A DNA stretch of 64,000 nucleotides from Candidatus Jorgensenbacteria bacterium GW2011_GWA1_48_11 (lineage in GTDB: Bacteria; Patescibacteriota; Minisyncoccia; UBA6257; GWB1-50-10), in NCBI GenBank assembly GCA_001003475.1, contig LCPF01000001.1:234571-298570 (forward strand), in the 5' to 3' direction. The position numbers and the translations under genes are program-made. The notes beneath the pieces were generated by a model, which saw nothing but the letters and a program-made list of their open reading frames with translations, did no database searches and had not been told where the DNA came from. This document shows, one piece after another, positions 3,359-31,236 of the stretch. Position 1 is the first letter of the stretch. Each line of letters begins with the position of its first letter.

Positions 3359-4189
3359 ATGTCGAAGTTTTTTGACGCGCATACGCATGCTCAGTTCGCG
3401 GCCTATGACGAAGACCGCGATTTTGTTATTAAGCGGGCTTTAGCCGCGGGTGTCGGCATGGTGAACGTGGGTACGACCCGGATGACATCCGAGGCCGCGG
3501 TTGGGCTGGCGCATCGATATTCCGGAATTTGTTTTGCGACTATCGGCGTCCATCCGAGTCACGCTTCGGTCTCGGAATACGTGGACCCGGATGAAATGGC
3601 CTCTGGCGGCGAAGAAAGATTGGAAATCGAATTGTACAAGAAACTGGCCGCGGACCCGGCCGTGGTCGCGATCGGAGAATGCGGTTTGGATTTTTTCCGC
3701 GTGACCGGCGAGGCGGTCCGGGAAAAGCAGAAAGCTCTTTTTGGCGAACACGTTGCTTTCGCGCACGACGTTAAAAAACCGCTGATGATCCATTGCCGGC
3801 AGGCGTTTCCGGAGCTTACCGCTATCCTGCAATCGCGCCGCTCCGAGCTTTTGAATCCGGCTGGCATTGTTCATTTTTTCACGGGCACGGAGGCGGAAGC
3901 GGAGGAACTTTTGAATCTGGGATTTTATTTTACCTTCGGTGGCGTTATCACTTTCGTCCGTGATTACGACCGGGTTATTAAAACGATCCCAATGGAGAGA
4001 ATTTTATCCGAAACCGATGCGCCCTACGTAACGCCAGTGCCCCATCGCGGTCGGCGCAACGAACCGGCTTATGTCACGGAAGTCGTGAAAAAGCTGGCCG
4101 AATTAAAAAACGTTTCGATCGAGGAGATGGCGGCGCAAATTTTGAAAAATGCGGAGCGAGTATTTGGTATTAACTTTTCCAGTCTTTGA
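3359..4189 (+). CDS. tatD: TatD-family metal-dependent hydrolase/DNase
   Basis: N-terminal FDAHTHAQF metal-binding motif and His/Glu/Asp ligands spread through a 276-aa TIM-barrel-sized protein. Confidence 0.8.
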   Translation: MSKFFDAHTHAQFAAYDEDRDFVIKRALAAGVGMVNVGTTRMTSEAAVGLAHRYSGICFATIGVHPSHASVSEYVDPDEMASGGEERLEIELYKKLAADPAVVAIGECGLDFFRVTGEAVREKQKALFGEHVAFAHDVKKPLMIHCRQAFPELTAILQSRRSELLNPAGIVHFFTGTEAEAEELLNLGFYFTFGGVITFVRDYDRVIKTIPMERILSETDAPYVTPVPHRGRRNEPAYVTEVVKKLAELKNVSIEEMAAQILKNAERVFGINFSSL

Positions 4190-4343
4190 TTACGATTTCT
4201 TTGCCGCGCTTTTCCACAACGACTTTCTGTGTTTCCTTCCAGCCGAATTCGCGGACAAGCTGAATCGGCAGGGTAATATAGTAACTCCTCTTTGATTTCT
4301 GGATATTTCTAATATTCTCATTAGCCAATTCTCTCCTTGTCAT
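4170..4343 (-). CDS. 57-aa AbrB/MazE/SpoVT-type (swapped-hairpin) DNA-binding mini-protein; not in the ORF track because it is under 60 aa
   Basis: Hand-translated minus-strand ORF: MTRRELANENIRNIQKSKRSYYITLPIQLVREFGWKETQKVVVEKRGKEIVIKDWKS. The '…ITLPIQLVREFGWKEGQ…VxVE…G..IVIK' pattern matches AbrB/MazE looped-hinge-helix proteins. An extended -10 TGATATAAT lies 7 nt upstream and the 32-bp palindrome 17 nt upstream. The ORF overlaps the tatD 3' end by 20 nt. Confidence 0.55.
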   Translation of the reverse strand: MTRRELANENIRNIQKSKRSYYITLPIQLVREFGWKETQKVVVEKRGKEIVIKDWKS

Positions 4344-4359
4344 AAAGATTATTATATCA

Positions 4360-4391
4360 CAGTTGCCCTAGGTTATAACCTAGGGCAACTG
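4360..4391. promoter_or_regulatory. 32-bp perfect palindrome CAGTTGCCCTAGGTTATAACCTAGGGCAACTG; candidate operator between divergent promoters
   Basis: The sequence is its own exact reverse complement over 32 bp. On the minus side it is followed by TGATATAAT and the AbrB-like ORF. On the plus side it is followed by TTGACA, about 100 bp, an AAGGAG Shine-Dalgarno site and the GC-rich ORF. Confidence 0.6.
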
Positions 4392-4499
4392 ATATTGACA
4401 TTGGGGAGTGGGAAGGTGGATTATTTAGGTACTTAGCCTCAATTCCGGGGCAGGGTCGGGATGGATAATCCCGGGCACCTTTACAACAAGGAGCAAGCC

Positions 4500-5123
4500 A
4501 TGAGTAGTCGTCGTCGTGGCCGGATAAGCCCCAAGCGTGCCCGAGAGATCATGGGTCAGAACTTCTTCGGCATCGAGGAAGCGATTTGGCATTTCGGGGT
4601 GAAGCCCACGCGCGCGGGGCTCTCGACTTTGGCCGAGACCTCATTCCGAGAAGTTATTCTTCGTGAATGCGGGAACACGCACGTTCTCGTTGCCATTCTT
4701 CCGCTCTCGATCCTCGGGATTCGGCGGAGAGTCGGACGCAAGCTCTTCCACAACCACCCGGGCGCCTGGTACGACAGCGAGTCTTTCGCGAAAGTGAAGG
4801 GCGAGGCTTGTTGGCAGCTCGTCCGGAAGACCCCGATCGACAAGAATTTCGGTTCGAAGACCAGGGATGAAGAACAGGCCCTTCTCGGCGAGGACGAAGG
4901 AGTCCCTTCGGCCCGGGTGTTGGTCTACACCACGATCGGCCACTACCTCGCGACTGGCGAGCGGCTCTTCGAACGGGCCTATGCCCGCTCGTCGGACGTG
5001 GATTCGGACGGCGACCATGTCGTCGTCGGCTTCTTCAACTCAGTTGGTCTCGACATAGACCGCTACTGGGACAGCGTCCGCGTCGACAATACCGGTCCTG
5101 CTTCCGCCTTGAAGTTGGACTGA
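4500..5123 (+). CDS. Hypothetical protein, unusually GC-rich (about 60% against about 50% for the flanks)
   Basis: ORF 4461..5123; the preferred start is ATG at 4500, 6 nt after AAGGAG. No recognisable motifs. Composition and codon usage are distinct from the neighbours. Confidence 0.45.
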   Translation: MSSRRRGRISPKRAREIMGQNFFGIEEAIWHFGVKPTRAGLSTLAETSFREVILRECGNTHVLVAILPLSILGIRRRVGRKLFHNHPGAWYDSESFAKVKGEACWQLVRKTPIDKNFGSKTRDEEQALLGEDEGVPSARVLVYTTIGHYLATGERLFERAYARSSDVDSDGDHVVVGFFNSVGLDIDRYWDSVRVDNTGPASALKLD

Positions 5124-5276
5124 ACCTCCGTCTGCCGACAGGCGGGCCGCAGTTCTTCCGTCTGGAGCGGAATGATCACCTTGAGCCTTCGGCGTATCCG
5201 CGATTTTTGCGGATTGCGCCGGAGGCTCTGTTTTTATTGAGAAAACGAAGAAATGCCGCTAGAATATTGAATATCA

Positions 5277-7703
5277 ATGCCAAAGTACGATTTCAGAAAG
5301 ATCGAGCCAAAATGGCAAAAGAAGTGGCTTTCCGAAAGGCTTTATGAGCCGGATCTGAAATCGGCTAAAAAGCCGTTCTATAACCTGATGATGTTCCCTT
5401 ATCCTTCGGCTGAGGGCCTGCACGTCGGGAACATGTACGCTTTCGTGGGTTCGGATATCTACGGCCGGATGAAACGGATGCAGGGCTACGACGTGTTTCA
5501 GCCGATCGGGCTCGACGGTTTCGGCATCCATTCGGAAAATTACGCTTTGAAGATCGGTACCCATCCAATGGATCAGTCAAAAATTTCCCAAGAGCGTTTT
5601 TACAAACAACTTGAAGAAATCGGCAATGGCTTTGCTTGGGACGAGAAACTCGAGACCTACGATCCGAAATATTACAAATGGACCCAGTGGATCTTTACGC
5701 AAATGTTCAAGAACGGTTTGGCTTATCGGAAACGTCAGGCCGTGAATTGGTGCCCGAAGGACCTCACGGTTTTGGCTGATGAGCAGGTTGTGGGTGGTAA
5801 GTGCGAGCGTTGCGGCGCCGAAGTCATAAAAAAGGATTTGGAGCAGTGGTTTTTCCGGATTACTAAATACGCGGATAAGCTCTTGGCGAATCTGGAGAAA
5901 ATCGATTGGTCGGAAAGAGTGAAGATCGCTCAAAAGAACTGGATCGGAAAATCTGAAGGAGCGTTAATAAAATTCAAAATTCAGAATTCAGAATTTGAAA
6001 TTGAGGTGTTTACGACCAGGCCGGACACCTTATTCGGCGCGACTTACATGGTTTTGTCACCGGAGCATGAACTTATCAAGAATCAAGAATCTAGAATTGA
6101 GAATTTAGAAGAAGTTAAAAAATACATTGTCACAGTCGGGAAAAAATCCGAAACGGAAAGAGTTGCCGAAGGCAAAGAAAAAACCGGCGTGGAACTAAAA
6201 GGCATTAAAGCCGTTAATCCGGCGAATAAGGAGGAAATTCCGATTTTCGTGGCCGATTATGTTCTTTCGTCTTACGGCACGGGCGCGATTATGGCTGTGC
6301 CGGCTCATGACGAACGGGATTTCGAGTTCGCGAAAAAATACAACTTACCGATAAAGATGGTTATCTGTCCAAATTATCCGGCGCCGGTTTGCCCCATCTT
6401 GGATGCCGCCTACGTTGATAGTGGTTATCTTGTCGGTTCCGGAGAGTTTGATGGTCTGCCGGCCGAAAAAGCCAAATGGGAAATCACGAAATTCGTTCAC
6501 GGCAAAAGGAAAGTTCAGTATCGTTTGCGCGACTGGCTTGTGTCTCGCCAGCGTTACTGGGGCGTCCCAATTCCGATGATCCATTGCGAGAAATGTGATT
6601 GGCAGCCGGTGCCGGAAAAAGATTTGCCCGTGGAGTTGCCGCATATCAAAAATTTTCGGCCGAAAGGCAAAGGCGAATCACCCCTGGCGAGCGACAAATC
6701 TTTTTACGAAACGAAATGCCCAAAGTGCGGCGGCAAAGCCCGGCGGGAAACGGACGTTTCCGACACGTTTCTTGACTCTGCGTGGTATTACATCAGATAT
6801 CCGTCGGTTAATGTGGAAAATTCAAGTTTGAAGATTGGAAATTCGAAATTGGAAATTCCGTGGAATTCAGAAATTACACGGCGGTGGTTGCCGGTCAGTC
6901 TTTATACCGGCGGGGCCGAGCATTCCGTGCTCCATCTTTTGTACGTCCGGTTCATGGCCATGGTTTTTCACGACTGGGGACTGCTGGATTTCGAAGAGCC
7001 TTTTCCGAAATTCCGCGCCCACGGCCTTTTGATAAAAGAAGGCGCCAAAATGTCCAAATCCAAGGGTAACATCGTTAATCCGGATTTTTACATCAAGGAA
7101 TTCGGCGCCGACACATTGCGAATGTATTTGATGTTTTTGGCGCCATTCGAGCAGGGCGGCGATTTCCGCGACGCCAGCATTTTGGGCATCTCGAGATTTT
7201 TGGAGAGAGTTTGGAAATTGGGCAATTCCGAATTCAAAAAATTTTCATCGGAACAGTTGCTTCATAAGACCATTAAAAAGATCACGGAGGATATCGAAAA
7301 TCTGCATTACAATACGGCCATTAGCGCTTTAATGATATTGTTGAATGCCTTTGAAAGCGATGGTGTAAGCCAAAAACAATTTGAAACTTTCTTGAAACTT
7401 TTGGCGCCTTTCGCGCCGCATGTAACCGAAGAAATGTGGCACGGCCTGGGCAACAAAACATCCGTTCATAAGGAAGGATGGCCGCAGCATGACAAAAAAT
7501 TAATTCAAGATGAAACAATTTTGTTCATTGTTCAAATAAACGGCAAACATCGGGCGACGATTGGCGCGGTTGCCGGACTTCCTCAAGAAGAAGCCGAAAC
7601 TTTGGTAAGGCAGGACGAAAAAGTCGGTAAATTATTGGCTAATCGGGAAATTAAGAAAATTATTTTCGTGCCCGACCGGCTCATTAATTTTGTATTAGAA
7701 TGA
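5277..7703 (+). CDS. leuS: Leucyl-tRNA synthetase
   Basis: 808 aa with N-terminal MPKYDF…WQKKW, an editing (CP1) domain and KMSKSKGN. It contains several AT-rich low-complexity in-frame inserts (KFKIQNSEFEIEV, VENSSLKIGNSKLEIPWNSEI). Confidence 0.9.
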   Translation: MPKYDFRKIEPKWQKKWLSERLYEPDLKSAKKPFYNLMMFPYPSAEGLHVGNMYAFVGSDIYGRMKRMQGYDVFQPIGLDGFGIHSENYALKIGTHPMDQSKISQERFYKQLEEIGNGFAWDEKLETYDPKYYKWTQWIFTQMFKNGLAYRKRQAVNWCPKDLTVLADEQVVGGKCERCGAEVIKKDLEQWFFRITKYADKLLANLEKIDWSERVKIAQKNWIGKSEGALIKFKIQNSEFEIEVFTTRPDTLFGATYMVLSPEHELIKNQESRIENLEEVKKYIVTVGKKSETERVAEGKEKTGVELKGIKAVNPANKEEIPIFVADYVLSSYGTGAIMAVPAHDERDFEFAKKYNLPIKMVICPNYPAPVCPILDAAYVDSGYLVGSGEFDGLPAEKAKWEITKFVHGKRKVQYRLRDWLVSRQRYWGVPIPMIHCEKCDWQPVPEKDLPVELPHIKNFRPKGKGESPLASDKSFYETKCPKCGGKARRETDVSDTFLDSAWYYIRYPSVNVENSSLKIGNSKLEIPWNSEITRRWLPVSLYTGGAEHSVLHLLYVRFMAMVFHDWGLLDFEEPFPKFRAHGLLIKEGAKMSKSKGNIVNPDFYIKEFGADTLRMYLMFLAPFEQGGDFRDASILGISRFLERVWKLGNSEFKKFSSEQLLHKTIKKITEDIENLHYNTAISALMILLNAFESDGVSQKQFETFLKLLAPFAPHVTEEMWHGLGNKTSVHKEGWPQHDKKLIQDETILFIVQINGKHRATIGAVAGLPQEEAETLVRQDEKVGKLLANREIKKIIFVPDRLINFVLE

Positions 7704-25344: not shown

Positions 25345-26124
25345 GTGAAGCTCAAGCGCTTGTTCCACAGCGTGTGGGCGTTGGGCTTTGTCGCGTGTAG
25401 CGATAGCCCGATTGCTCCACCGCCACCGCCCCCGCCTCCCATCCCGCCTACTCTTTCGGTCACGACCAACGAGGTCGGTCCGGAGAGTGCGTTGGTCCAC
25501 GCCTCGGCAAACACAGCCGTAGCATGGCGCGTCTTCTGGGGTTCGACGCTTGCTTTCGGCGACACAACGCCGGAAACCAGTCCGTCGCCCGAGCTGAACC
25601 AAACCCTCCGGGGACTCCGAGCGCTCACCACCTATTACTATCAGGTGGAGGCGCGGCTGGATTCTCTGCGGGTGCGGCTCTCAGGCGAGTTCCGAACCCC
25701 CGACTACCCGGTTTGCGACAACCGGAACACGACTACGCCGACCGTGACAGTGACGATCACCTGGACTTCGCCGACGCCGCCGGTCATGGGAAACATTCCG
25801 GTTCTGGACAACGTCGATCTACGCGACTGCAACGGTAGGGTTCTGACCCAGAACGGTGATCAGTTTTTCAGCGGGAGTCCAGGCACGGTCCAGATGCGCG
25901 TGAACTATGGCTCCGGACCGCACTGGTTTGGAGGCATGGTTTTCACGAACGACATTTGGTTCGTGCGCTGGGTTGACGCTTCGGAATTCCGCGTGAACGG
26001 CGTTCGGCTCACCCAGCCTACGGATTCCATGCCGCCGACCTGGCCATGCCGGCCCGATGTCGGTTGCATCCCGGGGCCCCGCTGGAAGTTCTGGGTGGAC
26101 AGCCTGGGCGGTGTCCATTCCTAA
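25345..26124 (+). CDS. Putative lipoprotein with an FN3/PKD-like segment; high GC (about 62%)
   Basis: Signal peptide with the lipobox-like LGFVAC; a poly-Pro run (PPPPPPPPIPP); …TTYYYQVEA… beta-sandwich signature. Its GC content is clearly above the neighbours. Confidence 0.5.
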   Translation: MKLKRLFHSVWALGFVACSDSPIAPPPPPPPPIPPTLSVTTNEVGPESALVHASANTAVAWRVFWGSTLAFGDTTPETSPSPELNQTLRGLRALTTYYYQVEARLDSLRVRLSGEFRTPDYPVCDNRNTTTPTVTVTITWTSPTPPVMGNIPVLDNVDLRDCNGRVLTQNGDQFFSGSPGTVQMRVNYGSGPHWFGGMVFTNDIWFVRWVDASEFRVNGVRLTQPTDSMPPTWPCRPDVGCIPGPRWKFWVDSLGGVHS

Positions 26125-31146: not shown

Positions 31147-31236
31147 ACTTCCCGATAAAATAGACTGTTCGATTCGTCGCCTCAATTCCTTGCATATGCA
31201 AGGAATTGAGGCTATCGATTTGCTTGGATTTCTGTT

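What the first reader, a model, noticed from the sequence alone, without database searches (positions are those of the whole stretch)
4170..5276. High-GC 1.1 kb insert between tatD and leuS: AbrB/MazE-like mini-regulator, a 32-bp perfect palindrome, and a divergent unknown gene
The intergenic stretch between two housekeeping genes has about 60% GC against about 50% for its flanks. It holds a 57-aa swapped-hairpin (AbrB/MazE/SpoVT-type) DNA-binding ORF that the ORF track missed. That ORF sits behind an exact extended -10 (TGATATAAT) with essentially no leader.

A 32-bp perfect palindrome, CAGTTGCCCTAGGTTATAACCTAGGGCAACTG, lies where the -35 would be. It is also upstream of a divergent TTGACA promoter and an AAGGAG site driving an unknown 207-aa GC-rich protein. 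The layout is a regulator/antitoxin-like protein plus a palindromic operator plus a cargo gene of foreign composition. It may be a small horizontally acquired regulatory or addiction-like module. The AbrB-like ORF overlaps the tatD stop by 20 nt.
Basis: partly seen in the sequence, partly recalled or inferred. Interest (0 to 1): 0.6.

Follow-up and report, generated by a model that had tools for sequence, protein, structure and literature searches.

The report
Orphan DGR variable-protein gene beside AbrB autoregulator
The "unknown GC-rich gene" is a leftover target gene of a diversity-generating retroelement that has lost its reverse transcriptase, and it sits next to a small native AbrB-type DNA-binding protein whose conserved palindromic binding site repeatedly lies beside such retroelements in related bacteria.

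Summary
The interpretation needs splitting.

(1) The 57-aa ORF (4170-4343, minus strand) is a true AbrB/MazE-fold protein. It belongs to a Patescibacteria-wide family of stand-alone regulators. In nearly every member a long perfect palindrome abuts an extended -10, and the ATG follows 6-7 nt later. The palindrome sequence changes as the protein diverges. This module is native: it sits between tatD and leuS in relatives that carry no insert. It is not an antitoxin, because there is no toxin gene and no C-terminal tail.

(2) The 207-aa gene (4500-5123) belongs to a family of more than 500 C-type-lectin-fold variable proteins of diversity-generating retroelements (DGRs). In homologous loci the template and variable repeats differ almost only at template adenines (15/15, 16/16, 21/21). 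The window copy lacks the N-terminal ~50 aa. It has no template repeat, Avd or reverse transcriptase within 64 kb, and it is the most divergent of the 72 family members aligned. It is most likely an orphaned relic that is no longer diversified.

(3) High GC is a trait of this gene family everywhere, so it does not prove recent transfer.

(4) DGR targets of at least four sequence-unrelated families sit divergently next to this AbrB-palindrome module elsewhere. That recurrence appears to be undescribed.

The parts
3359..4189 (+). tatD (TatD-family hydrolase). Left flank; its 3' end overlaps the AbrB ORF by 20 nt.
   Evidence: Pfam PF01026, E=1e-74. ORF table.
4170..4343 (-). 57-aa AbrB/MazE/SpoVT-fold DNA-binding protein. 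It is a stand-alone regulator, probably a dimer, and is translated from a leaderless mRNA.
   Evidence: PF04014, E=1e-7, above the cut-off. The family profile hits PDB 5itm/5itj/2l66, 'AbrB family transcriptional regulator', E~3e-3. The AF2 model has beta-beta-alpha-beta-beta topology. The top Foldseek hits are AbrB, MazE, SpoVT and VapB N-domains. The database search found 49 proteins including the window's own (58-95% identity among the others), almost all 57 aa.
4351..4359 (-). Extended -10 (TGATATAAT) of the AbrB gene. 7 nt separate it from the ATG, so the transcript is leaderless.
   Evidence: Read from the sequence. The same layout, palindrome then TGnTATAAT then 6-7 nt then ATG, recurs in most family members.
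4360..4391 (.). 32-bp perfect palindrome, the inferred operator of the AbrB-like protein. It holds two CCTAGG hexamers (4367-4372 and 4379-4384) 12 bp apart, flanked by GTTGC/GCAAC arms.
   Evidence: perfect, unique in the window. The outer arms AGTTGCCCTAG...CTAGGGCAACT are conserved upstream of nearly all homologs of at least 65% identity, and of 58-62% homologs in other operons. More distant homologs have a different palindrome at the same position, and one arm change is compensated in L115.
4395..4424 (+). Promoter-like site for the variable-protein gene: TTGACA, 18 nt, GATTAT. The -35 starts 3 nt after the palindrome.
   Evidence: 10 of 12 matches. This is a consensus match only.
4488..4493 (+). 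Shine-Dalgarno AAGGAG, 6 nt before the ATG at 4500.
   Evidence: Read from the sequence. JGI and ENA gene calls use this start, giving 207 aa.
4500..5123 (+). Orphan DGR variable-protein (target) gene, 207 aa, C-type-lectin/FGE-like fold. It lacks the N-terminal ~50 aa present in most family members.
4996..5115 (+). Region equivalent to the variable repeat (VR). Where the TRs of homologous DGRs have AAC/AAT codons, this gene has GAC, GAC, GTC, TTC, GAC, GAC, CGC, TAC, GTC, GTC.
   Evidence: My codon-by-codon reading of this stretch against the TR sequences of L004 and L009 printed. No second copy of this stretch exists in the window.
5128..5145 (+). Small hairpin CCGTCTG-CCGA-CAGGCGG starting 5 nt after the stop codon. 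It occupies the position where family members carry a small hairpin within CTTGA-type repeats.
   Evidence: Sequence and comparison with the stereotyped 3' flanks. The pairing was read by eye and not tested by folding; its function is inferred.
5177..5236 (+). Conserved 3' element of the cassette: CACCTTGAGCC, a long hairpin (GAGCCTTCGGCG...CGCCGGAGGCTC, 5183-5228) and a T-run. It is probably the terminator. This is the last stretch homologous to DGR cassettes.
   Evidence: blastn matches to the 3' flanks of L085, L027, L017 and L004. Sequences shown.
5237..5265 (+). leuS promoter-like site: TTGAGA, 17 nt, TAGAAT. The native right flank starts here.
   Evidence: The region is homologous to the leuS upstream sequence in L096 and L134.
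5277..7703 (+). leuS (leucyl-tRNA synthetase). Right flank.
   Evidence: ORF table. Pfam families on record for the same gene in L001.

Best explanation
The region is a composite of a native regulator module and a decayed retroelement target gene.

(A) AbrB module. The 57-aa protein is a stand-alone AbrB-fold DNA-binding protein. As a dimer, or a pair of dimers, it most likely binds the 32-bp palindrome, which holds two CCTAGG half-sites 12 bp apart. The palindrome covers the -35/spacer region of the protein's own extended-10 promoter, and the mRNA is leaderless. The protein should therefore repress its own transcription. This module is native to the tatD-leuS junction in part of the Parcubacteria. 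Ancestrally the palindrome lay in the short divergent promoter region shared by the AbrB gene and leuS.

(B) DGR target gene. A DGR target gene was inserted between the palindrome and the leuS promoter, roughly 4392-5236. This 207-aa gene encodes a C-type-lectin-fold variable protein. Its C-terminal variable repeat still shows the NNC codon pattern left by adenine-directed mutagenesis. The template repeat, Avd and reverse transcriptase are absent, the N-terminal ~50 aa are missing, and conserved positions have drifted. It is therefore most likely an orphaned relic with a frozen sequence that is no longer diversified. It may still be transcribed from a TTGACA promoter that starts 3 nt from the operator, which would put it under AbrB control.

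Shown: the fold and family of both proteins; the DGR nature of the gene family; the absence of DGR machinery in 64 kb; the conservation and co-variation of the palindrome; and the synteny with and without inserts.

Inferred: DNA binding and autorepression; loss of diversification; any expression of the relic.
For: AbrB module:
- PF04014 hit, PDB profile hits to AbrB-family regulators, and a beta-beta-alpha-beta-beta model that matches AbrB, MazE, SpoVT and VapB.
- The palindrome is conserved upstream of homologs in several different gene neighbourhoods.
- The layout palindrome / TGnTATAAT / 6-7 nt / ATG is family-wide, and the palindrome sequence tracks protein divergence.
- L107, L115 and L122 have tatD-AbrB-palindrome-leuS with no insert.

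Target gene:
- 523 homologs. Of 79 genomic loci, 43 show the order target-TR-Avd-RT.
- TR/VR mismatches at TR adenines: 15/15 in L004; 16/17, 16/17 and 16/16 in L009.
- C-type-lectin/FGE fold.
- The window's VR-equivalent has NNC codons where the foreign TRs have AAC (my reading against the TRs).

Orphan and relic status:
- No RT or Avd by tblastn, and no repeat of the gene's 3' end in the window.
- It is the most deviant of 72 aligned members: 15 of 94 columns that are at least 90% conserved differ, against a mean of 4.5% (sd 2.7). The changes include W122R, S117F and R204L.
- The N-terminal ~50 aa are missing.
- An allele with a 25-aa in-frame deletion removes near-invariant residues.
- Only the last unit of the stereotyped 3' flank is retained.
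- Decayed cassettes are common in this family. L019, L038 and L081 keep only 3' fragments of the RT next to the target.
- L108 has the same layout, AbrB-palindrome-orphan target-like gene-terminator-trpS.
Against: - Only 64 kb of a 635-kb contig could be examined, so a DGR elsewhere in the genome could still act on this gene as a remote target.
- The ORF is intact and has a good Shine-Dalgarno site, a promoter-like site and a terminator.
- A small 4-nt-loop hairpin sits just after the stop codon, where DGR targets carry a recognition hairpin.
- The identical VR in three other assemblies is weak evidence, because those contigs are 100% identical to the window throughout this region.
- The alignment used for the deviance test was selected by similarity to the query, which may inflate the query's outlier status.
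- The closest relatives by TatD identity (64-68%; L014-L016) lack AbrB at the junction. 'Native' therefore holds for a patchy clade, and the AbrB module may itself move over long time scales.
- DNA binding by the AbrB-like protein has not been tested.
Confidence: 0.7

Rival explanations
1. The 207-aa gene is still an active remote target of a DGR (RT, Avd and TR) located elsewhere in the 635-kb genome, and its VR is still being rewritten.
For: The ORF is intact, with a Shine-Dalgarno site, a promoter-like site and a terminator. The VR has the typical NNC codon pattern (my reading against the TRs). A hairpin with a 4-nt loop starts 5 nt after the stop codon. Remote targets are documented for DGRs and are missed by contig-based surveys (PMC8144416). 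The closest relative by TatD identity carries a complete DGR-type RT and Avd only ~4 kb from its own tatD-leuS junction (L014).
Against: There is no TR, RT or Avd in 64 kb. By my own comparison of the printed sequences, the GC-rich 3' end of the VR, which is conserved in the family (GTCCGCCCGG), is degraded here (TTCCGCCTTG); this includes loss of the near-invariant Arg204. The gene is the most divergent family member at conserved scaffold positions. A deletion allele exists. The VR is identical in every assembly recovered.
Confidence: 0.17
2. The AbrB-palindrome module is functionally coupled to DGRs. The AbrB-like protein is a dedicated transcriptional regulator of the divergent variable-protein/TR/RT unit, and the window preserves that regulator-target pair after the RT was lost.
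For: Targets lie divergently across the palindrome from AbrB homologs in several loci. Three carry a confirmed TR/VR pair: L096 (24/30 mismatches at A), L097=L116 (21/21) and L169 (23/23), whose AbrB is only 56% identical and has a different palindrome. In L106 the pair is less clean (14/21). L127 and L124 are assigned by homology to these targets. L108 and L113 rest on a C-terminal motif only. In L105 an RT abuts the AbrB 3' end. At least four of these target families show no sequence similarity to one another. Under strict criteria (RT/Avd hit, or a TR/VR pair with at least 75% of mismatches at A), 3 of the 39 distinct AbrB loci with at least 1.2 kb of upstream sequence qualify. I estimate, from general knowledge and not from any measurement here, that about 0.15 would be expected if DGRs were placed at random. 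In the window, the -35 of the target promoter starts 3 nt from the operator. The literature searches found no description of this pairing.
Against: None of about 90 loci of the window's own target family (L004-L095) has an AbrB-family ORF within 6 kb. Most AbrB-palindrome modules are next to housekeeping genes such as leuS, trpS, rtcB, a beta-CASP RNase gene and prfB. In L096 and L097 the target promoters lie 50-60 bp from the palindrome. AbrB proteins with and without DGR neighbours are intermixed by sequence. That fits repeated insertion next to a pre-existing module as well as it fits co-selection.
Confidence: 0.3
3. The long perfect palindrome is a recombination-prone insertion hot spot, a landing pad. 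DGR targets and other cassettes accumulate next to it for that reason, independently of AbrB function.
For: At the same spot, between the palindrome and the leuS promoter, different genomes hold different inserts. These are a family-A relic (window), a decayed DGR with an unrelated target (L096), a GC-rich ~150-aa ORF with its own terminator (L134) and ~330 nt of non-coding DNA (L125). L107 has nothing there. The same pattern is seen upstream of trpS, comparing L108 with L109/L110. In L096 two identical 42-bp copies of the slightly asymmetric palindrome, in direct orientation, flank the whole target-TR-Avd-RT insert. That is the product expected if a circle carrying one copy integrated at the site.
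Against: No recombinase gene lies next to the module in the loci whose called genes were listed (L096-L102). Only L096 has the duplication. The palindrome is explained well enough as an operator, since it abuts the -10 in every member and co-varies with the protein.
Confidence: 0.3
4. The region is a type II toxin-antitoxin or addiction module, with the AbrB/MazE-like protein as antitoxin and the 207-aa protein as toxin or cargo.
For: The Pfam family is named MazE_antitoxin. There is a palindromic operator at the promoter. Some sources label homologs as antitoxin components.
Against: No gene is co-transcribed with the AbrB ORF, whose 3' end runs into the tatD 3' end. At 57 aa the protein is only the DNA-binding domain (residues 14-53 match the profile) and has no toxin-binding tail. 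The neighbour is divergent and is a C-type-lectin-fold DGR target. Family members occur alone or as the first gene of rtcB or beta-CASP operons. The closest sequence matches in the PDB are stand-alone AbrB-family regulators.
Confidence: 0.03

Closest known systems
DGR variable (target) proteins with the C-type-lectin fold: Mtd (Bordetella phage BPP-1), TvpA (Treponema denticola), TaqVP (Thermus aquaticus), and in particular the small domain-less targets of the Patescibacteria-restricted DGR clade 2 (Roux et al. 2021, PMC8144416)
   Same: Homologs carry C-terminal VRs paired with TRs whose mismatches fall at adenines. The predicted fold matches FGE, TvpA, Mtd and TaqVP. There is no transmembrane or other recognisable domain, as reported for CPR clade 2 targets. 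The VR-equivalent has NNC codons at the family's AAC positions.
   Different: There is no TR, Avd or RT within 64 kb. The N-terminal ~50 aa are missing. Conserved scaffold residues and the GC-rich VR 3' end have drifted. Only part of the family's stereotyped 3' flank is kept.
Remote or orphan DGR targets, meaning VRs not adjacent to an RT (mentioned for cyanobacteria in Vallota-Eastman et al. 2020, as cited in PMC8144416)
   Same: A target-type gene stands alone, far from any RT.
   Different: Known remote targets have a matching TR elsewhere in the same genome. Here none could be found or excluded, and the sequence shows signs of decay.
AbrB/SpoVT-family stand-alone DNA-binding proteins (B. 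subtilis AbrB N-domain; Sulfolobus Sso7c4, PDB 2l66/5itj/5itm)
   Same: Swapped-hairpin beta-beta-alpha-beta-beta domain. The family profile hits 5itm/5itj/2l66. The protein consists of the domain alone, ~50-57 aa.
   Different: AbrB and Sso7c4 bind DNA with loose sequence specificity (general knowledge). This family has a long, perfect, co-varying palindrome fixed at its own promoter, which points to a specific operator. DNA binding was not tested.
MazE/VapB/PrlF-type antitoxins that autoregulate through palindromic operators
   Same: The same DNA-binding fold, and a palindrome overlapping the protein's own promoter.
   Different: There is no downstream toxin gene and no C-terminal toxin-binding extension. 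Family members head rtcB or beta-CASP operons or stand alone.

Membership tests
DGR variable (target) protein | Sequence homology to proteins whose C-terminal VR is paired with a TR that differs at TR adenines | tested here: met
   55-61% identity to more than 500 proteins. Mismatches at A: L004 15/15; L009 16/17, 16/17 and 16/16. Of 79 genomic loci, 43 carry Avd and RT in a fixed order.
DGR variable (target) protein | C-type-lectin (CLec/FGE-like) fold carrying the VR | tested here: met
DGR variable (target) protein | Its own VR is matched by a cognate TR with adenine-specific mismatches | tested here: not met
   No repeat of 4461-5276 anywhere in the 64-kb window. The rest of the 635-kb genome was not available. 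Pattern scans of public collections did not even recover the VR itself, so they say nothing.
DGR variable (target) protein | VR codon usage shaped by A-mutagenesis (NNC/NNY codons at TR AAC positions) | tested here: met
   GAC, GAC, GTC, TTC, GAC, GAC, CGC, TAC, GTC, GTC at the positions of AAC/AAT codons in the L004 and L009 TRs. This is my reading against the TR sequences.
DGR variable (target) protein | GC-rich IMH-like 3' end of the VR and a downstream hairpin for target recognition | tested here: inconclusive
   By my comparison of the printed sequences, the family consensus GTCCGCCCGG reads TTCCGCCTTG here, which includes R204L. A different 7-bp/4-nt-loop hairpin, read by eye, lies at 5128-5145. 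The CTTGA-type repeats of the family flank are mostly lost.
Complete diversity-generating retroelement | Reverse transcriptase, Avd and TR next to the target | tested here: not met
   tblastn with a DGR RT and Avd against the window gave no hit better than E=0.3. There is no TR. The cassette ends at its terminator, 5236, directly before the leuS promoter.
AbrB/MazE/SpoVT swapped-hairpin DNA-binding domain | Profile match above the curated threshold | tested here: met
   PF04014, 32.3 bits against a cut-off of 24.7, E=1e-7. TIGR01439 is below its cut-off (16.4 against 28.3).
AbrB/MazE/SpoVT swapped-hairpin DNA-binding domain | beta-beta-alpha-beta-beta topology and structural similarity to solved members | tested here: met
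   Model strands at 14-17, 20-23, 41-46 and 49-54, helix at 27-33, pLDDT 77. Foldseek top hits are AbrB, MazE, SpoVT and VapB, with TM 0.5-0.72. The E-values are weak, as expected for 57 aa.
AbrB/MazE/SpoVT swapped-hairpin DNA-binding domain | Dimerisation and sequence-specific binding to the palindrome | not testable with these tools
   Only comparative support is available: the palindrome is conserved, positioned at the promoter and co-varies with the protein.
Type II toxin-antitoxin system (MazEF/VapBC/PrlF-YhaV type) | Toxin gene co-transcribed with, and adjacent to, the antitoxin | tested here: not met
   The AbrB ORF ends inside the 3' end of the convergent tatD gene. No ORF follows it on its strand.
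Type II toxin-antitoxin system (MazEF/VapBC/PrlF-YhaV type) | Antitoxin has a C-terminal toxin-binding region beyond the DNA-binding domain | tested here: not met
   The protein is 57 aa and the Pfam domain covers residues 14-53. The family is almost uniformly 57 aa.

The most novel reading that the evidence does not exclude
A family of 57-aa AbrB-fold proteins, each with its own perfect-palindrome operator, forms a platform in Patescibacteria next to which DGR target genes of at least four unrelated families are repeatedly placed divergently. Either the AbrB protein is a previously unrecognised transcriptional regulator of DGR targets and cassettes, or the palindrome is a recombination landing pad that mobilises DGR cassettes. 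The second reading is supported by the identical 42-bp palindrome copies that flank the DGR in L096. The window would then be the decayed end-state of such a regulator-DGR pairing.
Probability: 0.3. Interest if true: 0.65.

Novelty: new member of a known kind. Interest (0 to 1): 0.45.

Why it matters
On its own the locus is ordinary. It holds a small autoregulator and a decayed copy of a known kind of gene. Three points have wider value.

First, it gives a clean example of how DGR cassettes decay in streamlined CPR genomes, where the target outlives the reverse transcriptase. It also shows that high GC is intrinsic to this target family, so composition-based calls of horizontal transfer would mislead here.

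Second, it defines a compact regulator-operator family: a palindrome, then TGnTATAAT, then a leaderless 57-aa AbrB-fold gene. The operators co-vary with the proteins, which makes the family easy to test by EMSA.

Third, I know of no described regulator of DGR expression or mechanism of cassette spread, and the literature searches here found none. The recurrent placement of unrelated DGR targets next to this module, together with the palindrome copies flanking a DGR in L096, offers a concrete and testable lead on both questions.

Tried and rejected
- Search for a cognate TR in public collections. I used a degenerate VR pattern, GTGGATTCGNNCGGCNNCCATGTCNNCGTCGGCNNCTTC, on genome contigs and metagenome contigs. 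It gave zero hits and did not recover the VR itself, so the scans say nothing either way.
- The idea that the target families next to AbrB are homologous to the window's family. hhalign of the family-A profile against the targets of L108, L096 and L097 found no significant similarity (E 0.07-0.24). They are treated as separate families. For L108 and L113 the 'target-like' label rests only on a C-terminal motif and high GC.
- AbrB as a general component of family-A DGR cassettes. This is rejected: an HMM of the AbrB family found no hit within 6 kb of about 90 family-A loci.
- Known RNA families in 4100-5350 and in the conserved 400-nt tatD-leuS gap of relatives. None was found, even at E<=1.
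- Extra palindrome matches found with a loose regular expression in some loci. By my estimate these are about what chance would give; only the L096 duplicate is an exact 42-bp copy.
- Toxin-antitoxin reading: rejected on gene order and protein length.
- The reading of the whole 1.1 kb as one foreign island: rejected, because AbrB plus the palindrome occurs at the same junction without cargo and the AbrB ORF has low GC.
- Literature. No paper in the held library links DGRs with AbrB, MazE or SpoVT regulators. Paul et al. 2017, the CPR DGR survey, could not be read.


Full report
**1. What is in the sequence**

The window comes from Candidatus Jorgensenbacteria bacterium GW2011_GWA1_48_11, a member of the Parcubacteria/CPR. 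Both small proteins of the region are found in that genome's records, on a 635,647-bp contig.

- tatD is 3359-4189 (+). A 57-aa ORF is 4170-4343 (-), and the two overlap by 20 nt.
- A perfect 32-bp palindrome lies at 4360-4391. It is unique in the window, and none of 100 shuffles produced a match.
- An extended -10, TGATATAAT (reverse complement of 4351-4359), abuts the palindrome. 7 nt separate it from the ATG.
- On the other strand, TTGACA is at 4395-4400, AAGGAG at 4488-4493, and a 207-aa ORF at 4500-5123.
- leuS starts at 5277.

The GC claim needs narrowing. The 207-aa gene has GC 0.60 (GC3 0.74), which is in the top 1% of 624-nt windows. The AbrB ORF has GC 0.40. The compositionally odd part is therefore about 0.85 kb, not 1.1 kb.

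**2. The 57-aa protein and the palindrome**

The ORF matches Pfam PF04014 above threshold (E=1e-7). A database search found 49 proteins including the window's own; the others are 58-95% identical to it, almost all are exactly 57 aa, and all that carry a taxon label are from Patescibacteria.

A profile of this family hits the PDB entries 5itm, 5itj and 2l66, 'AbrB family transcriptional regulator'. An AlphaFold model has the beta-beta-alpha-beta-beta swapped-hairpin topology. Its best structural matches are the AbrB, MazE, SpoVT and VapB N-domains.

I fetched 87 loci that encode family members, representing 77 distinct sequences, and found a family-wide layout. A long perfect or near-perfect palindrome of 24-54 bp, with an AT-rich centre (TTTAAA, TTATAA or TTAA), is followed directly by TGnTATAAT. 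The ATG comes 6-7 nt later, so the mRNA is leaderless.

In the clade close to the window (at least 65% identity) the outer arms are AGTTGCCCTAG...CTAGGGCAACT. Many members have three CCTAGG hexamers; the window has two, 12 bp apart. More distant members have quite different palindromes at the same position, for example:
- ATCCCTAGGATTAATCCTAGGGAT in L144, L146 and L147
- AACGACGTCATTAATGACGTCGTT in L160
- GCTCCTGAATTAATTCATGAATTAATTCAGGAGC in L154

One arm change is compensated symmetrically in L115 (GCTCTAG/CTAGAGC).

A cis element that stays fixed at the -35/spacer of the gene's own promoter, keeps its symmetry and changes with the protein is what a cognate operator looks like. I infer negative autoregulation; this has not been shown.

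The protein cannot be a classical antitoxin. Nothing is co-transcribed with it. It consists only of the DNA-binding domain. Family members stand alone or head operons such as archease-[palindrome]-AbrB-rtcB or [palindrome]-AbrB-beta-CASP RNase.

**3. The module is native to this junction**

In L107, L115 and L122 the order is tatD, then AbrB on the opposite strand, then the palindrome, then leuS. No gene is inserted: leuS starts ~45 nt after the palindrome in L107 and ~100-150 nt after it in L122 and L115. The same module also lies in front of trpS in L109 and L110.

The closest relatives by TatD identity (64-68%; L014-L016) have tatD followed directly by leuS, with neither AbrB nor a target gene. 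Presence of the module is therefore patchy across the group.

Between the palindrome and the leuS promoter, different genomes hold different inserts:
- nothing (L107)
- about 330 nt of non-coding DNA (L125)
- a GC-rich ORF of about 150 aa with its own terminator (L134)
- a decayed DGR (L096)
- the 207-aa gene (the window)

In the window the foreign segment runs from just after the palindrome (about 4392) to the T-run of the cassette terminator (5236). The leuS promoter-like site, TTGAGA-17-TAGAAT at 5237-5265, follows immediately.

**4. The 207-aa protein is a DGR variable protein**

It has no Pfam or NCBIfam match, but it has 523 homologs at 55-61% identity, mostly about 255 aa. The window copy lacks their N-terminal ~50 residues.

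Gene neighbourhoods of the homologs show bAvd and RVT_1 genes. Of 79 loci from species-representative genomes, 43 have the fixed order target, TR, Avd (reverse strand), RT.

The TR/VR pairs are textbook cases. In L004 all 15 mismatches fall at TR adenines. In L009 the three VRs show 16/17, 16/17 and 16/16.

**5. The window copy is orphaned and probably decaying**

- The window has no RT or Avd and no second copy of the gene's 3' end. The cassette stops at its terminator.
- The VR-equivalent (about 4996-5115) still has NNC codons exactly where foreign TRs have AAC/AAT, which is a footprint of past adenine mutagenesis (my reading against the TRs).
- The copy is the most deviant of 72 aligned members at conserved columns: 15 of 94, against a mean of 4.5% (sd 2.7). 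The changes include W122R, S117F and R204L. R204L lies in the normally GC-rich 3' end of the VR.
- The family's stereotyped 3' flank is stop-ACCTTGAA..CTTGAG..CTCTTGA..TCCTTGAGCCTTCGGCG-loop-CGGAGGCTC-TTTT. The motif C[CT]TTG[AG] occurs 1.32 times per 90 nt there, against a background of 0.14. The window keeps only the last unit and the terminator.
- An allele with a 25-aa in-frame deletion that removes near-invariant residues exists in another sample.
- Decay is common in this family. L019, L038 and L081 keep only RT 3' fragments next to the target. L096 has a truncated RT and Avd, and 6 of its 30 TR/VR mismatches are not at adenines.

Caveats:
- Only 10% of the genome was visible.
- The ORF is intact.
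- A small hairpin follows the stop codon.
- The recovered contigs are 100% identical to the window throughout this region, so an invariant VR carries little weight.

I put 'relic, no longer diversified' at about two in three, and 'active remote target' at about one in six.

**6. High GC is a family trait**

Across the 79 loci the target gene averages GC 0.558 and its flanks 0.419. The target is higher in 77 of 79 loci. The RT of the same cassettes averages 0.39. The other target-like genes next to AbrB are also GC-rich: 0.60-0.65 against 0.42-0.52 for the rest of their contigs. The comparative synteny does show that the gene is an insertion.

**7. An unexpected recurrence**

From the AbrB side, DGR targets sit divergently across the palindrome in several unrelated settings.
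- L096: the same tatD-leuS junction, but a target with no sequence similarity to the window's, plus a TR and a truncated Avd and RT.
- L097=L116: a different neighbourhood, a third target family, and 21/21 mismatches at A.
- L106: 14/21 mismatches at A.
- L169/L170: the AbrB is only 56% identical and has a different palindrome; the target is 138 aa, with 23/23 mismatches at A.
- L105: an RT abuts the AbrB 3' end.
- L127 and L124: assigned by homology to the targets above.
- L108 and L113: assigned by a C-terminal motif only.

L108 reproduces the window's layout: AbrB, palindrome, orphan 207-aa GC-rich gene, terminator, trpS.

Under strict criteria (an RT/Avd hit, or a TR/VR pair with at least 75% of mismatches at A), 3 of the 39 distinct AbrB loci with at least 1.2 kb of upstream sequence qualify. 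This is well above my rough expectation of about 0.15 if DGRs were placed at random; that expectation is an estimate from general knowledge, not a measurement.

AbrB proteins with and without DGR neighbours are intermixed by sequence, so gain or loss has happened repeatedly.

Against a dedicated DGR role, none of about 90 loci of the window's own target family has an AbrB-family ORF within 6 kb, and most modules flank housekeeping genes.

In L096 two identical 42-bp copies of the slightly asymmetric palindrome, in direct orientation, bracket the whole DGR. That is what integration of a circle at the palindrome would produce.

Two explanations remain open, each at about 0.3, and they do not exclude each other. 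Either the AbrB protein controls the divergent target, or the palindrome is a recombination-prone landing site. I found no paper linking DGRs with AbrB-type regulators.

**8. Verdict**

The locus is a new member of known kinds: an AbrB-type autoregulator and an orphaned DGR target. It also yields a moderately interesting comparative lead on where DGR cassettes sit and how they might be controlled in CPR bacteria.

Noticed in passing
L017-L095 (79 loci of the target family); window 4500-5123: Target genes of this DGR family average 14 GC points above their flanks (0.558 against 0.419; higher in 77 of 79 loci). The RT gene of the same cassette averages 0.39. The cause is unknown. AT skew shows no coding-strand adenine depletion across the window gene, so it is not simply that.
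   Followed up: partly
90 nt after the target stop codon in L004, L009 and L017-L095; window 5124-5236: The 3' flank is highly stereotyped: ACCTTGAA..CTTGAG(small hairpin)..CTCTTGA..TCCTTGAGCCTTCGGCG-loop-CGGAGGCTC-TTTT. Similar CCTTGG/CTTGA repeats follow the unrelated targets of L096, L097 and L108, but were not seen after the TRs examined (L004, L009). This could be a target-side recognition element of Patescibacteria DGRs.
   Followed up: partly
L096 705-742 and 2933-2970 (GCA_035573955.1, DATLZO010000014.1): Two identical 42-bp copies of the AbrB palindrome, in direct orientation, flank the whole target-TR-Avd-RT insert between AbrB and leuS.
   Followed up: partly
L014 1-1300 (GCA_043799565.1), upstream of the peptidase M16 gene: The closest relative by TatD identity (68%) has a full-length DGR-type RT (67% identical to the RT of L097) with a divergent Avd, about 4 kb from its tatD-leuS junction. 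Its target and TR lie beyond the fetched stretch.
   Followed up: partly
L014 5826-6223 and L016 5922-6320: The ~400-nt tatD-leuS gap is 76% identical between two relatives. It has no ORF and no Rfam match even at E<=1, and it ends in a terminator-like hairpin just before the leuS promoter. It may be an unknown non-coding RNA or a decayed insert.
   Followed up: partly
L098-L102, L140, L149, L150, L158: More distant members of the AbrB family (56-69% identity), with the same kind of palindrome, are the first gene of operons with rtcB (preceded by archease) or with a beta-CASP/metallo-beta-lactamase RNase gene. This points to a link with RNA repair or processing genes. Other members are adjacent to aaRS genes (leuS, trpS).
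   Followed up: no
L108 ~1020-1130 and L124 ~590-700; L097, L106 and L127 upstream of the target start: Two types of conserved, hairpin-containing 5' leader precede target genes of different families. One is GAGGTCTTCACATCTTAGG...TTAAGGTGTGGAGGCCTCAT-AGGAGG. The other is ACTGGCAGA.CCTT.GATT...GAATGAGGG. They may be regulatory leaders of DGR targets.
   Followed up: no
P0122 (JGI contig of 7,341 nt); window residues 37-61 of the 207-aa protein: A natural allele carries a 25-aa in-frame deletion but an identical VR.
   Followed up: partly
window 31179-31212: A second long perfect palindrome (34 bp, GCCTCAATTCCTTGCATATGCAAGGAATTGAGGC) lies between two convergent genes. No AbrB-family gene is nearby, and it looks like a bidirectional terminator-type hairpin.
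   Followed up: partly
window 25345-26124: A 259-aa ORF with the highest GC in the window (0.62) has an N-terminus that looks lipoprotein-like by eye and a proline run. The HMM built from the DGR target family (A2) does not hit it. Its origin was not examined.
   Followed up: no
L003 position 1 = window 4362: One public assembly contig starts exactly inside the palindrome. This suggests that assemblers break at this hairpin-forming repeat.
   Followed up: no
L134 ~4260-4740 (reverse strand): A GC-rich ORF of about 150 aa, with a hydrophobic N-terminal stretch that may be a transmembrane helix (judged by eye) and its own terminator, occupies the same palindrome-to-leuS slot in another genome. 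It resembles no DGR target found here.
   Followed up: no
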